Source: a virus
Taxonomy: Duplodnaviria; Heunggongvirae; Uroviricota; Caudoviricetes
IMG/VR virus record: IMGVR_UViG_2541047926_000013
Coordinates: 1-26,967 of that record
DNA length: 26,967 bases
Direction: 5' to 3' (one strand)
Positions within the stretch are counted from its first letter, which is position 1. Every line of letters starts with the position of its first letter. Below are positions 9,001 through 12,000 of this stretch, piece by piece. A program made the position numbers.

Positions 9001-12000
9001 TGTCTTTATATCAAAAGACTAACAGTGCTGCGGCATAAAAACACCACAGAAATGAGGAATTAACCGTGGGTAAAGAACCTGAATGGAAAGTTGATAAACA
9101 ACCAGCATGGCTGGTGGCAGCAATACGAAGAACGATTGCTGATTTACCTCATGGCTATGAGGAAGCAGCAGAAATTCTTGGTTTGTATAAATCTGATGAT
9201 ATCACCCCAGCAAAAGATCAATTGCATAACAGACTGCGTAGCGGTGGGGATCAAATTTTTCCACTTGAGTGGGCCATGGTTTTACAGGATGCCAGTGGTA
9301 CCAGGCATGTAACAGATGCAATAGCCCGTCGTAGTAATGGGGTGTTTGTGCCGCTGGTGGTCATTGATGACATTGACAATGGTGACATTAATCAGCGGCT
9401 GATGGAGTCAATAGAATGGATTGGCAAGCATTCCCAGTACTTACGCAAGGCAACTGCTGATGGAGTTATTGACCAAGCTGAGCGTGAGCAAATCGAAGAG
9501 AACAGCTACCAAGTAATGGCGAAGTGGCAGGAGCATTTAACACTGTTATTTCGTGTTTTTTGTGCGCCGGAAAAGAGTAACGCCCGCGAGTGTGCAGCTC
9601 CGGGCGTCGTGGCGTCGATTGCTTCTGGTTGTGGAGAAACTAACGCATGAACAGTTTAACAACACACTACCGTCGCTCGCAACTGATTGCGCTTCCTGTA
9701 CCGGGTGGAAAAGCGAAGGTGGAGTATTGCTATGCAGTAAATGTACCAGGTGACAGGGAAATTGTAACCCACAGCTTTGCTGAGTGGGCTGTGGGTGATT
9801 TCAACCGGCAGAAGGAGACAGTCCTTTGCGACAAGTTAACCGCTGGTTCAAAGATCACTACGGAGTACCCGTCAGAGTCATTCGTTGGGAGCCGGAAACA
9901 CAACGGGTTATCTACCTCCGTGAAGGCTATGAGCATGAGTGCTTCAGTCCGCTCGAACAGTTTCGTCGTAAATTCAGGGAAATAGAGGTCGGTCATGAGC
10001 ACTAAATTAACCGGCTATGTATGGGATGGTTGCGCTGCGTCAGGCATGAAGTTATCCAGCGTGGCAATTATGGCCCGCCTGGCTGATTTCAGTAATGACG
10101 AAGGTGTGTGCTGGCCATCAATTGAAACCATTGCCCGCCAGATTGGCGCGGGGATGAGTACCGTCAGAACGGCTATCGCACGGCTGGAAGCAGAAGGCTG
10201 GTTAACGCGTAAGGCGCGTCGCCAGGGTAACCGCAATGCGTCGAATGTTTATCAGCTTAACGTTGCGAAGCTTCAGGCAGCGGCATTTTCTCAACTGTCA
10301 GATTCTGACCCGTCAAAATCTGACGCATCAAAATCTGACCCGTCAAAATTTGATGCGTCGAAATCTGGCAAAAAAGCGGGTTTTCACCCGTCAGAATCTG
10401 GCGGGGATCCGTCAGTAAAATCAAAACATGATCCGTCAGATAAAAAACCTTCTCGTCCGGACGCTTCGCAACCGGACACGCAGACGGATGAACAGGATTT
10501 TTTAACTCGCCATCCTGATGCGGTTGTATTCAGCCCTAAAAAGCGCCAGTGGGGAACGCAGGATGATTTGACCTGCGCACAGTGGCTCTGGAAAAAAATC
10601 ATCGCCCTGTACGAGCAGTCCGCCGAATGTGACGGCGAGGTGGTTCGTCCCAAAGAACCGAACTGGACAGCCTGGGCAAACGAAATTCGCCTGATGTGTG
10701 TGCAGGATGGTCGTACTCACAAACAAATCTGCGAGATGTACAGCCGCGTCAGCCGCGATCCGTTCTGGTGCCGTAACGTGCTCAGCCCGTCGAAGTTGCG
10801 GGAAAAATGGGATGAGCTTTCCCTGCGCTTATCGCCGTCCGTCAGCACGCACACAGAAAAACGTGAAGACCCGTACTTCAAAGCCAGTTACGACAACGTG
10901 GACTACAGCCAGATCCCGGCAGGATTCAGGGGGTGATTATGAGTCTTTTGAATGAAGTTCAGAAATTCATTGAAGCCCATCCGGGGTGTACTTCCGGAGA
11001 CATTGCGGATGCTTTTGCAGGTTACTCACGGCAGCGCGTTCTGCAGTCAGCAAGCAAGTTACGTCAGAGTGGGCGTGTGGCTCACCGTTGTGAAGGAGAT
11101 ACACGCAGACATTTCCCACGCCTGACTGAGAGAGCGCAGGAGCCGGAACCACAACCAGTTCGTGAAACCAAACCTGTGCGCAATTTCTATGTCGGCACTA
11201 ACGATCCCCGGGTGATTTTGTGCCTGACCCGCCAGGCTGAAGAGCTGGAGTCCAGGGGTTTATACCGTCGTGCTGCAACGGTGTGGATGGCGGCATTCCG
11301 AGAAAGCCACTCCCAGCCAGAACGAAACAATTTTCTGGCGCGTCGTGAGCAGTGCTTACGGAAAAGCAGCAAGCGAGCTGTATCGGGTGATGAGTGGTAT
11401 CTGTCAGGGAATTACGTGGGGGCTTAATGAGTAATAAATATTGCCAGGAGCTGGTGGAACTGCGGAACAAACCAGCCCATGAACTGAAGGAAGTGGGTGA
11501 TCAGTGGCGCACGCCGGACAACATTTTCTGGGGAATTAACACCCTGTTTGGCCCGTTTGTTCTGGATCTGTTCACTGACGGTGATAACGCCAAATGTGCC
11601 GCGTATTACACGGCGGAAGACAACGCGCTGGCGCATGACTGGTCAGAACGCCTTGCGGAGCTTAAAGGTGCTGCCTTTGGTAATCCTCCATACAGCCGCG
11701 CCAGTCAGCATGAAGGGCAATACATCACCGGCATGCGTTACATCATGAAACATGCCAGTGCCATGCGTGATAAGGGCGGGCGCTATGTTTTCCTGATCAA
11801 AGCTGCCACCAGCGAAGTGTGGTGGCCGGAAGATGCGGACCATATTGCTTTTATTCGCGGGCGTATTGGTTTTGAACTGCCTGCCTGGTTTATCCCGAAG
11901 GACGAGAAGCAGGTGCCGACAGGAGCTTTTTTCGCTGGTGCTATTGCTGTTTTTGACAAGACCTGGAAGGGACCGGCAATCAGCTACATCGGGCGCGATG

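What the first reader, a model, noticed from the sequence alone, without database searches (positions are those of the whole stretch)
10297..10440. Origin-like iteron array embedded in the initiator coding sequence
About five tandem 15-bp repeats plus degenerate copies and an A-rich stretch lie inside the initiator gene, where they encode a repetitive DPSKSD peptide linker. This mirrors the lambda arrangement where the origin sits within gene O, but with 15-bp periodicity.
Basis: partly seen in the sequence, partly recalled or inferred. Interest (0 to 1): 0.45.

Follow-up and report, generated by a model that had tools for sequence, protein, structure and literature searches.

The report
Phage replication origin inside initiator gene
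The 15-base repeats are real, are conserved as DNA rather than as protein, and are most likely the binding sites of a lambda-style replication origin inside the phage's own initiator gene. The same sites in the E. coli K-12 relic gene yfdO were published as binding boxes of the host regulator SrsR.

Summary
Gene 9995-10936 of this SfII/SfIV-like lambdoid phage carries five 11-bp palindromes (TCAGA-W-TCTGA) at an exact 15-bp pitch (10298-10368). A sixth lies at 10391-10401 and a degenerate one at 10421-10431. A 70% A+T stretch with two GATC sites follows. The motif occurs nowhere else in the 27-kb window.

The repeats encode a predicted disordered linker, but the constraint is on the DNA. In relatives, codons are frozen in the linker and free in the N-terminal domain. 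The spacer codons change amino acid. One relative keeps a perfect copy in another reading frame.

The array follows the N-terminal winged-helix domain, not the C-terminal domain. phiNP has the same N-domain and array with a different C-domain. mEp460 has the same C-domain with another N-domain and other repeats. The C-domain is 38% identical to that of lambda O, but no P gene or helicase gene is present.

So this is an undescribed specificity type of the known "origin inside gene O" arrangement. Initiator binding and origin activity are inferred, not shown.

Unexpectedly, the four "SrsR boxes" footprinted in the K-12 yfdO/yfdP "spacer" (PMC9181523) are these repeats in a truncated copy of this gene. 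A host regulator therefore binds the array in vitro.

The parts
8780..8809 (+). pR-like promoter upstream of cro. It heads the operon that contains the initiator gene.
   Evidence: The only sigma-70-like match in 8700-11500: TTGACA-18-TACATT. The cro-like gene at 8841-9038 matches Pfam P22_Cro. Promoter function is inferred.
9995..10936 (+). Replication initiator gene (313 aa), equivalent to SfIV gp41 and to the intact form of E. coli K-12 yfdO.
   Evidence: ORF. 98.9% identical to SfIV gp41. PHROG 391 'replication initiation O-like' at 1.4e-135. K-12 yfdO is a 5'-truncated copy.
9995..10294 (+). N-terminal winged helix-turn-helix domain (aa 1-100), the presumed iteron-binding domain. Candidate recognition helix: STVRTAI.
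   Evidence: Pfam HTH_36 at 4e-11, with weaker GntR, MarR and DnaD_N hits. The AF2 model shows helices plus a beta wing. Foldseek finds MarR/ArsR-type dimers, weakly. No similarity to the lambda O N-domain.
10298..10368 (.). Tandem array of five 11-bp palindromic iterons (TCAGATTCTGA, TCAAAATCTGA x2, TCAAAATTTGA, TCGAAATCTGG) at an exact 15-bp pitch with 4-nt variable spacers.
   Evidence: Copies 1-4 are the four published 'SrsR boxes' of K-12 read on the other strand.
10369..10390 (.). A6...T4 spacer (caaaaaagcgggttttcacccg) between the array and the isolated iteron.
   Evidence: The A-run and the GTTTT(C/G)ACCC element are kept in relatives. The terminator-like hairpin on the minus strand is not conserved in relatives.
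10391..10401 (.). Isolated sixth iteron, TCAGAATCTGG, 33 bp after the fifth.
   Evidence: It is present at the same offset in nearly all relatives and is duplicated out of frame in L008 and L086.
10406..10453 (.). A+T-rich stretch, A-rich on the + strand, with two GATC sites (10406, 10430) and a degenerate iteron (10421-10431). Candidate unwinding region.
   Evidence: 70% A+T and the least stable 40-mer in the gene. In relatives it is 65-75% A+T, and the GATC pair 24 bp apart is kept in 62/62 and 53/62 loci.
10437..10473 (.). Mosaic joint. This sequence is shared by genes that carry a different N-domain and repeats (mEp460) or a different C-domain (phiNP).
   Evidence: Similarity to mEp460 starts at query nt 443, and similarity to phiNP ends at query nt 479.
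10490..10825 (+). C-terminal helical domain homologous to the lambda O C-terminal domain, the part that binds P according to textbook knowledge.
   Evidence: BLASTP against lambda O: 38% identity over 112 aa, E 1e-27. AF2 pLDDT is 80-92.
10907..10933 (+). C-terminal tail SQIPAGFRG, which resembles the C-terminus of host DnaT.
   Evidence: 8 of 9 residues identical, E 0.004 in a pairwise BLASTP. Function unknown.

Best explanation
The array is the initiator-binding part of the phage's replication origin, built like ori-lambda but of a different specificity type.

Proposed mechanism:
1. The gene is transcribed from a pR-like promoter.
2. Dimers of its product's N-terminal winged-helix domain bind the five adjacent 11-bp palindromes and the isolated sixth one, and form a multimeric complex.
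3. This complex stresses or opens the adjacent 40-50-bp A-rich stretch that carries two GATC sites.
4. The lambda-O-like C-terminal domain, and perhaps the DnaT-like tail, then bring in the host DnaB loading machinery. The phage encodes no P, DnaC or helicase.

The sites sit in the part of the gene that encodes a disordered linker, so the DNA can be selected as binding sites at little cost to the protein. Because the pitch is 15 bp (five codons), the sites read out as a peptide repeat.

Shown here:
- the anatomy of the array;
- the constraint at the DNA level;
- the linkage of the array to the N-domain;
- the homology of the C-domain to lambda O;
- the lack of a loader gene.

Inferred:
- that the initiator binds the array;
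- that unwinding occurs next to it;
- how the helicase is recruited.
For: (1) Uniqueness. The motif occurs only here in the window. In 86 related loci it occurs only inside this gene: 356 copies in the genes against 4 in 225 kb of flanks.

(2) Constraint on the DNA.
- Among amino-acid-invariant degenerate codon columns, the codon itself is invariant in 18/24 linker columns against 5/62 N-domain columns (Fisher p 1.9e-9).
- The linker is nevertheless more variable in amino acids: 25/49 columns vary against 30/97.
- Serine codons in the linker are 86% TCA/TCT against 21% in the N-domain. Lysine AAA is 96% against 58%.
- The 4-nt spacers change amino acid among P, A, T and G.
- L008 and L086 keep a perfect copy in reading frame +2, encoding TLQNLTP.
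- Providencia copies read SKSV rather than SKSD while keeping 10 of 11 bases.

(3) Modularity.
- phiNP, Flotzy and YeP2 have the same N-domain and the same array with a different C-domain. The phiNP C-domain matches Pfam Phg_2220_C.
- mEp460 has a 96%-identical C-domain with an unrelated N-domain, and carries different 23-bp palindromic repeats at the same place.
- More distant HTH_36 initiators (SfV orf39, 24B O, RAH1, ZF40, Vibrio D75) all have their own 21-24-bp repeats at gene nt 270-440.
- Relatives with an altered helix (STVYGAL, STIRGAI) carry CCAGAATCTGG cores instead.

(4) Same position as the annotated lambda iterons, and a homologous C-domain.

(5) An A+T-rich stretch directly follows the array.

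(6) Copy number changes by whole 15-bp units. E. coli N32 has one extra unit, and relatives carry 3-9 copies.

(7) The linker is predicted disordered, aa 102-164 at pLDDT about 33.

(8) The array is a protein-binding target in vitro, although the protein tested was a host factor.
Against: - No experiment shows that the initiator binds the array or that replication starts here.
- The A+T-rich stretch is only 70% A+T, against 78% in lambda.
- An 11-bp palindrome at a 15-bp pitch is an unusual geometry for iterons and for a winged-helix dimer.
- No P-type partner is encoded, so the downstream steps are unknown.
- The only protein experimentally shown to bind these repeats is the host LysR-type regulator SrsR.
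- Because all copies but two are in one frame, some selection at the peptide level cannot be wholly excluded.
Confidence: 0.75

Rival explanations
1. The repeats are primarily an operator array for the host LysR-type regulator SrsR (YgfI/DhfA). Through it the host or the prophage controls transcription of the downstream genes (yfdONMLK in K-12). They would not be origin iterons.
For: PMC9181523 reports the following.
- The strongest genomic-SELEX peak of SrsR in K-12 is the yfdO/yfdP 'spacer', with intensity 1206 against at most 288 elsewhere.
- DNase I footprinting protects 66 bp there, containing four boxes.
- yfdO mRNA falls in the srsR mutant (3.7- to 9.5-fold in two growth phases) and rises 10- to 12-fold on overexpression.

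The boxes TCAaATTTTGa, TCAGATTTTGa (x2) and TCAGAgTcTGa are the exact reverse complements of array copies 4, 3, 2 and 1 in K-12.
Against: - In intact phages the array lies 300 nt inside an ORF, not in a promoter region. It is 'intergenic' in K-12 only because the gene lost its first 78 codons.
- The array co-varies with the initiator's N-domain. Phage mEp460 has the same flanking genes and C-domain but different repeats, which a host operator would not predict.
- The array is kept in prophages of Providencia, Proteus, Yersinia, Rahnella, Pantoea and other genera.
- The footprint needed 10-40 uM protein.
- The text of an independent ChIP-exo study of YgfI reports dhaKLM as its binding site and does not mention yfdO.

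SrsR binding as a secondary, added function is not excluded.
Confidence: 0.1
2. The repeats are binding sites of the phage initiator, but they serve autoregulation, titration or copy control of the initiator rather than being the site where replication starts. The true origin would lie elsewhere.
For: All the evidence for DNA-level constraint and for linkage to the N-domain fits this reading equally well. The A+T-rich stretch is modest. No helicase loader is encoded.
Against: - Positional and domain homology with lambda, where this exact arrangement is the origin (PMC7466680).
- No second cluster of the motif exists anywhere in the window or in the flanks of relatives.
- An A-rich stretch bearing GATC sites is conserved immediately next to the array.
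Confidence: 0.1
3. The repeats are only a by-product of a low-complexity Ser/Asp/Lys/Pro linker that expands and contracts by slippage. On this reading the DNA sequence itself has no function.
For: - The region encodes a predicted disordered linker.
- Copy number varies by whole units.
- Nearly all copies are in one reading frame.
Against: - Synonymous positions are frozen while amino acids vary (p 1.9e-9).
- The unit is a DNA palindrome.
- Out-of-frame perfect copies exist in L008 and L086.
- The spacer codons are the variable part.
- The isolated sixth copy is kept at a fixed offset in relatives.
Confidence: 0.03

Closest known systems
ori-lambda within gene O of phage lambda, and the six-iteron variants of Stx phages 933W and P27
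   Same: - Initiator-binding repeats with dyad symmetry lie in the middle of the initiator gene, after the N-terminal DNA-binding domain.
- An A+T-rich stretch follows them.
- The gene lies in the pR operon.
- The C-terminal domain is homologous, 38% identical (PMC7466680).
- Copy number varies between phages.
   Different: - The N-domain is unrelated in sequence: HTH_36, not Phage_rep_O, and no BLAST match.
- The sites are 11-bp palindromes at an exact 15-bp pitch in a single codon phase. Lambda has 18-bp sites at a 20/24/23-bp pitch in three codon phases.
- The A+T-rich stretch is 70% A+T against 78% in lambda.
- No P gene follows.
- A C-terminal tail resembling that of DnaT is present here. 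Lambda O ends differently.
SrsR (YgfI) boxes in the yfdO/yfdP region of the E. coli K-12 CPS-53 prophage (Kobayashi et al. 2022, PMC9181523)
   Same: It is the same DNA. K-12 yfdO is a 99%-identical, 5'-truncated copy of this gene, and the four footprinted boxes are array copies 1-4.
   Different: The paper treats the region as an intergenic promoter of a stress operon. It mentions neither iterons nor an origin. In the intact phage the boxes are inside the initiator ORF.
Repeat arrays in other HTH_36 or 'O-like' phage initiators (SfV orf39, phage 24B O, mEp460, ZF40 gp14, Vibrio phage D75)
   Same: Tandem, often palindromic repeats lie at gene nt 270-440, directly after the winged-helix domain.
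   Different: Their period is 21-24 bp (33 bp in one soil-metagenome relative, L093), and their sequences differ. Several are followed by a P-type loader or a helicase gene.
Plasmid iterons (pSC101, R6K, RK2 and P1 type)
   Same: Multiple clustered binding sites for the replicon's own winged-helix initiator lie next to an A+T-rich region. This comparison rests on my own knowledge.
   Different: Plasmid iterons are 17-22-bp direct repeats at about two helical turns, usually outside the rep gene. Here the sites are 11-bp palindromes at 1.4 turns, inside the gene.

Membership tests
Lambda-type origin located inside the initiator gene | A cluster of at least 3-4 repeats with internal dyad symmetry inside the initiator ORF, between the DNA-binding domain and the C-terminal domain | tested here: met
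   There are 5 + 1 (+1 degenerate) palindromes at gene nt 304-437. They lie between the winged-helix domain (aa 1-100) and the C-domain (aa 166-280), in a predicted disordered linker. Lambda's iterons lie at gene nt 349-433.
Lambda-type origin located inside the initiator gene | An A+T-rich stretch directly following the last repeat | tested here: met
   10414-10453 is 70% A+T, the least stable 40-mer in the gene and in the top 3% of the window. Across 62 relatives it is 65-75% A+T. This is weaker than lambda's 78%.
Lambda-type origin located inside the initiator gene | The repeat sequence is specific to, and inherited with, the N-terminal DNA-binding domain | tested here: met
   The same array occurs with the same N-domain across four different C-domains. 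mEp460 has different repeats with a different N-domain and the same C-domain. Relatives with an altered helix have shifted cores.
Lambda-type origin located inside the initiator gene | The repeats are constrained as DNA, independently of the reading frame | tested here: met
   Codon invariance is 18/24 in the linker against 5/62 in the N-domain (p 1.9e-9). Codon usage is skewed. Out-of-frame copies exist.
Lambda-type origin located inside the initiator gene | The initiator protein binds the repeats | not testable with these tools
   This needs EMSA or footprinting with the purified protein.
Lambda-type origin located inside the initiator gene | The segment supports initiator-dependent replication in vivo | not testable with these tools
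   This needs an ori-plasmid assay or marker-frequency analysis.
Lambda O protein family | N-terminal domain of the Phage_rep_O type | tested here: not met
   Pfam finds HTH_36, GntR and MarR-like models, not Phage_rep_O. BLASTP against lambda O residues 1-118 gives no alignment.
Lambda O protein family | C-terminal domain homologous to that of lambda O | tested here: met
   38% identity over 112 aa, E 1e-27.
Lambda O protein family | An adjacent P-type helicase-loader gene | tested here: not met
   The genes from 10933 to 15369 are PerC-like, Dam, LexA-DBD-like, RusA, KilA-N, DUF968/HNH and Q.
SrsR (YgfI) operator | Sequence identical to the footprinted SrsR boxes | tested here: met
   The four published boxes are the reverse complements of array copies 1-4 in K-12. 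The window differs from K-12 at one base of copy 1.
SrsR (YgfI) operator | Location in a promoter or intergenic region upstream of the regulated gene | tested here: not met
   In the window the array is 303 nt inside a 942-nt ORF. It is 'intergenic' only in the truncated K-12 relic.
SrsR (YgfI) operator | SrsR occupies the site in vivo | not testable with these tools
   The text of the one ChIP-exo study I read does not mention yfdO. Its supplementary tables were not checked.
Plasmid-type iterons | 17-22-bp direct repeats phased at about two helical turns | tested here: not met
   The sites are 11-bp palindromes at a 15-bp pitch. 219 of 279 successive distances in relatives are exactly 15.

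The most novel reading that the evidence does not exclude
The array is a dual-use element. It would be both the origin iterons of a very common enterobacterial prophage family and the highest-affinity genomic target of the host stationary-phase regulator SrsR. A host LysR-type factor could then gate phage replication or early-operon expression at the origin. In K-12 the orphaned origin would have been co-opted as an SrsR-dependent enhancer of the yfdONMLK peroxide-tolerance operon. A further possibility is that initiators of this type load host DnaB without any phage loader, using a C-terminal tail that mimics DnaT.
Probability: 0.25. Interest if true: 0.65.

Novelty: new member of a known kind. 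Interest (0 to 1): 0.42.

Why it matters
- The origin of the SfII/SfIV/CPS-53 prophage group carries no origin or repeat feature in the records I opened. The SfIV genome paper I read does not mention it. The gene is present at 80% coverage or more in 1576 of 5426 complete E. coli genomes. Locating the origin helps prophage annotation, induction and copy-number studies, and vector design.
- It shows a clean natural case of modular exchange. One lambda-O-type C-domain is joined to at least three unrelated pairs of DNA-binding domain and iteron set.
- It reinterprets a published result. The strongest in-vitro target of the E. coli regulator SrsR is a relic phage origin inside a truncated initiator gene, not an ordinary intergenic promoter. 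This changes how that regulon should be read and raises a testable host-phage link.

Tried and rejected
- Pure peptide-linker explanation: rejected by the codon analysis and by the out-of-frame copies.
- CI/Cro operator or another regulator with sites elsewhere in the phage: no copy of the motif lies outside the gene.
- Terminator-like hairpin on the minus strand at 10377-10390: not conserved in relatives, so treated as chance.
- Inverted repeat 10028-10044 / 10457-10473 flanking the N-domain module: the left arm is not conserved in phiNP, so treated as chance.
- Whole-domain homology to DnaT: only the last 9 residues match. Sequence searches of solved structures and of NCBIfam gave nothing for the C-domain. 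The real relative of the C-domain is lambda O.
- Plasmids that use this gene as their replicon: the PLSDB hits are large plasmids or 37-64-kb phage-sized circles, so they are not informative.
- Literature searches for iterons of this phage group found nothing.
- GC skew around the site shows no clear signal.
- The function of the DnaT tail was not found in the 2026 preprimosome paper.
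Full report
**What is there**

The window is an SfII/SfIV-like lambdoid phage. Gene 9995-10936 is 98.9% identical to SfIV gp41, and its neighbours match as well.

Tandem Repeats Finder reports a 15-bp period at 10304-10367 with 4.3 copies, and a 30-bp super-period. Read closely, the unit is an 11-bp palindrome, TCAGA-W-TCTGA, followed by a 4-nt spacer. Copies start at 10298, 10313, 10328, 10343 and 10358. An isolated copy lies at 10391 and a degenerate one at 10421.

With at most one mismatch, all ten strand-matches in the 27-kb window fall within 104 bp. Shuffles give 2.1 expected for the whole window, and none of 100 shuffles reaches ten.

The array is followed by 10414-10453, which is 70% A+T, A-rich on the + strand, and the least stable 40-mer in the gene. 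Two GATC sites lie at 10406 and 10430.

In frame, the array encodes SDSDPSKSDASKSDPSKFDASKSG.

**The gene**

- The product matches PHROG 391 'replication initiation O-like' end to end, at 1.4e-135.
- Its N-terminal 100 residues are a winged helix-turn-helix: Pfam HTH_36 at 4e-11. An AlphaFold model built from 35 homologues shows helices plus a beta wing. That domain resembles MarR/ArsR-type dimers only weakly (Foldseek E about 2e-3).
- Residues 102-164 are predicted disordered, with pLDDT about 33. These residues are encoded by the array and the A-rich stretch.
- Residues about 166-280 form a confident helical domain. It is 38% identical to the C-terminal domain of lambda O (E 1e-27).
- The N-domain shows no similarity to that of lambda O.
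- The gene follows a pR-like promoter (8780-8809), cro and a CII-like gene.
- Between it and Q (14575-15369) lie genes for PerC-like, Dam, LexA-DBD-like, RusA, KilA-N and DUF968/HNH proteins. There is no P, DnaC or helicase gene.

**DNA or protein?**

I compared the window with five phage homologues whose N-domains are 81-89% identical in protein: phiNP, Kp4871-1, Flotzy, KpF5 and YeP2.

- In the N-domain, only 5 of 62 amino-acid-invariant degenerate codons keep the same codon in all six genomes. In the linker, 18 of 24 do (Fisher p 1.9e-9).
- The linker is nevertheless more variable in amino acids: 25/49 columns vary against 30/97.
- The variable positions are the spacers between palindromes, where the codon encodes P, A, T or G. 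TCA-AAA-TCT-GA is frozen.

A scan of one genome per bacterial species gave 80 further loci in Escherichia, Citrobacter, Klebsiella, Enterobacter, Kluyvera, Yersinia, Rahnella, Pantoea, Proteus, Providencia and other genera.

- Over 79 distinct genes, serine codons in the linker are 86% TCA/TCT against 21% in the N-domain. Lysine AAA is 96% against 58%.
- The genes hold 356 near-perfect cores. The 225 kb of flanking DNA holds 4.
- 219 of 279 successive distances are exactly 15 bp.
- Two relatives (L008, L086) keep a perfect extra copy 32 bp from its neighbour. It is read in another frame as TLQNLTP.
- In Providencia, nine copies read SKSV rather than SKSD while keeping 10 of 11 bases.
- E. coli N32 differs from the window by exactly one extra unit.

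This is the signature of a DNA element lying over a weakly constrained linker. It is not the signature of a peptide repeat.

**Who reads it?**

The array is inherited with the N-terminal domain.

- phiNP, Flotzy and YeP2 combine the same N-domain and array with a different C-domain. The phiNP C-domain matches Pfam Phg_2220_C.
- Phage mEp460 combines a 96%-identical C-domain, and the same neighbouring genes, with an unrelated N-domain. At the same place it carries four to five different 23-bp palindromic repeats of the type CCATCGGGTCAAAGTGACCTGATGG.
- The joint between modules lies at 10437-10473, right after the array and the A-rich stretch.
- More distant HTH_36 initiators (SfV orf39, 24B O, RAH1, ZF40, Vibrio D75) each carry their own 21-24-bp repeats at gene nt 270-440.
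- Within the family, genes whose candidate recognition helix reads STVRTAI carry TCAGAWTCTGA. Those reading STVYGAL or STIRGAI carry CCAGAATCTGG.

This is the pattern known for lambda, where the annotated iterons lie at nt 349-433 of gene O and are followed by a 78% A+T stretch (PMC7466680).

I therefore read the array as the iteron part of a lambda-type origin of a different specificity, with confidence about 0.75. Binding, unwinding and helicase recruitment are inferences.

**Differences from lambda**

- The sites are shorter: 11 bp against 18 bp.
- They abut at a 15-bp pitch, about 1.4 helical turns. Lambda's pitch is 20, 24 and 23 bp.
- They are therefore all in one codon phase, whereas lambda's are in phases 0, 2, 2 and 1. 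That is why a peptide repeat appears here.
- The array can also be read as alternating inverted pentamers: TCAGA, 1 nt, TCTGA, 4 nt. Which pair of half-sites a dimer uses is open.
- No loader gene is present.
- The protein ends in SQIPAGFRG. Similar tails occur in the relatives I looked at that lack an adjacent P or helicase gene, though not in all of them (YeP2 and L008 end differently). The tail is absent from those that have such a gene.

**An unexpected link**

E. coli K-12 yfdO (prophage CPS-53) is a 99%-identical copy of this gene that lacks its first 78 codons. RefSeq marks it 'missing N-terminus'.

Kobayashi et al. (PMC9181523) found that the strongest genomic-SELEX target of the LysR-type regulator SrsR (YgfI) is the yfdO/yfdP 'spacer', with intensity 1206 against at most 288 elsewhere. 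They footprinted 66 bp containing four 11-bp boxes there. They also showed SrsR-dependent yfdONMLK expression.

The listed boxes (TCAaATTTTGa, TCAGATTTTGa twice, TCAGAgTcTGa) are the reverse complements of array copies 4, 3, 2 and 1 in K-12. The paper does not mention iterons or an origin.

So a host factor binds this array in vitro. I rate this as a secondary or co-opted use rather than the reason the array exists, for these reasons:

- In intact phages the array is deep inside an ORF.
- It co-varies with the phage N-domain.
- It is kept across many genera.
- The footprint needed 10-40 uM protein.
- The text of an independent ChIP-exo study of YgfI reports dhaKLM as the binding site and does not mention yfdO.

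I did not test whether SrsR orthologues exist in all genera that keep the array.

**Verdict**

In kind it is already known: lambdoid origins lie inside the initiator gene, and several specificity types exist. I therefore file it as a new member of a known kind.

It has three points of added interest: the unusual 15-bp in-phase palindromic geometry, the absence of a loader gene together with a DnaT-like tail, and the identity with the published SrsR boxes.

Noticed in passing
window 10298-10353; locus L016 1571-1626 (E. coli K-12 yfdO/yfdP region): The four published 'SrsR boxes' of E. coli K-12 (PMC9181523) are copies 1-4 of this array inside a 5'-truncated copy of the initiator gene. The strongest in-vitro SrsR target in K-12 is therefore a relic phage origin.
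   Followed up: partly
Similar tails (IPEGFRG, NSGFRS/T) occur in Flotzy, phiNP, the Klebsiella phages and SfV orf39, none of which has a P or helicase gene next to the initiator. The tail is absent from lambda, 24B, SF6, RAH1 and ZF40, which do have one. YeP2 and L008 lack both the tail and an adjacent P or helicase gene in the stretch examined.
   Followed up: partly
window 10490-10825: The C-terminal domain is 38% identical to the lambda O C-terminal domain (which binds P, from textbook knowledge), yet no P-like gene exists between the repressor gene and Q.
   Followed up: yes
window 10406-10433 and 11394-12080: Two GATC sites 24 bp apart lie in the A-rich stretch after the last iteron. They are kept in 62/62 and 53/62 relatives, even where the amino acids differ. 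GATC density is 28 per kb there against 3.1 per kb in the rest of the gene. The phage encodes its own Dam methylase 1 kb downstream. Possible methylation or SeqA control of the origin.
   Followed up: partly
window 9647-9985 and 9826-10005: Two overlapping ORFs in different frames lie just upstream of the initiator gene. The 112-aa ORF (phrog_1170) is annotated in SfIV as gp40. The 59-aa ORF (Pfam DUF4222, 8.6e-19) is annotated by PGAP in E. coli and in many other genera next to this initiator. The annotations conflict, and both ORFs may be real.
   Followed up: partly
window 10437-10473: The short conserved sequence CCTTCTCGTCCGGACGCTTCGCAACC is shared by initiator genes with different N- or C-modules. 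It looks like the recombination joint between the origin/N-domain module and the C-domain module.
   Followed up: partly
L003 2330-2470 (phage mEp460_4F5): An initiator with the same C-domain but an unrelated N-domain carries its own set of 23-bp palindromic repeats (about 5 copies) at the equivalent position. This is probably another unannotated origin type.
   Followed up: partly
L069 and L094 (E. coli ECDA1023, ECGI0523); L016 1501 (K-12): In these strains the initiator ORF is broken after codon 79 and continues into an unrelated ORF. K-12 yfdO begins at the same nucleotide (query nt 234). This suggests one shared rearrangement breakpoint inside the N-domain coding region.
   Followed up: no
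L093 1874-1984 (soil metagenome-assembled genome, Proteobacteria): A distant relative has three near-identical 33-bp units (98% matches) flanked by CCAGAATCTGG palindromes. This is a recent expansion with a different period.
   Followed up: no
window 10377-10390, minus strand: A terminator-like hairpin (CGGGTGAAAACCCG followed by a T-run) lies on the antisense strand between the array and the sixth iteron. It is not conserved in relatives and is probably chance.
   Followed up: partly
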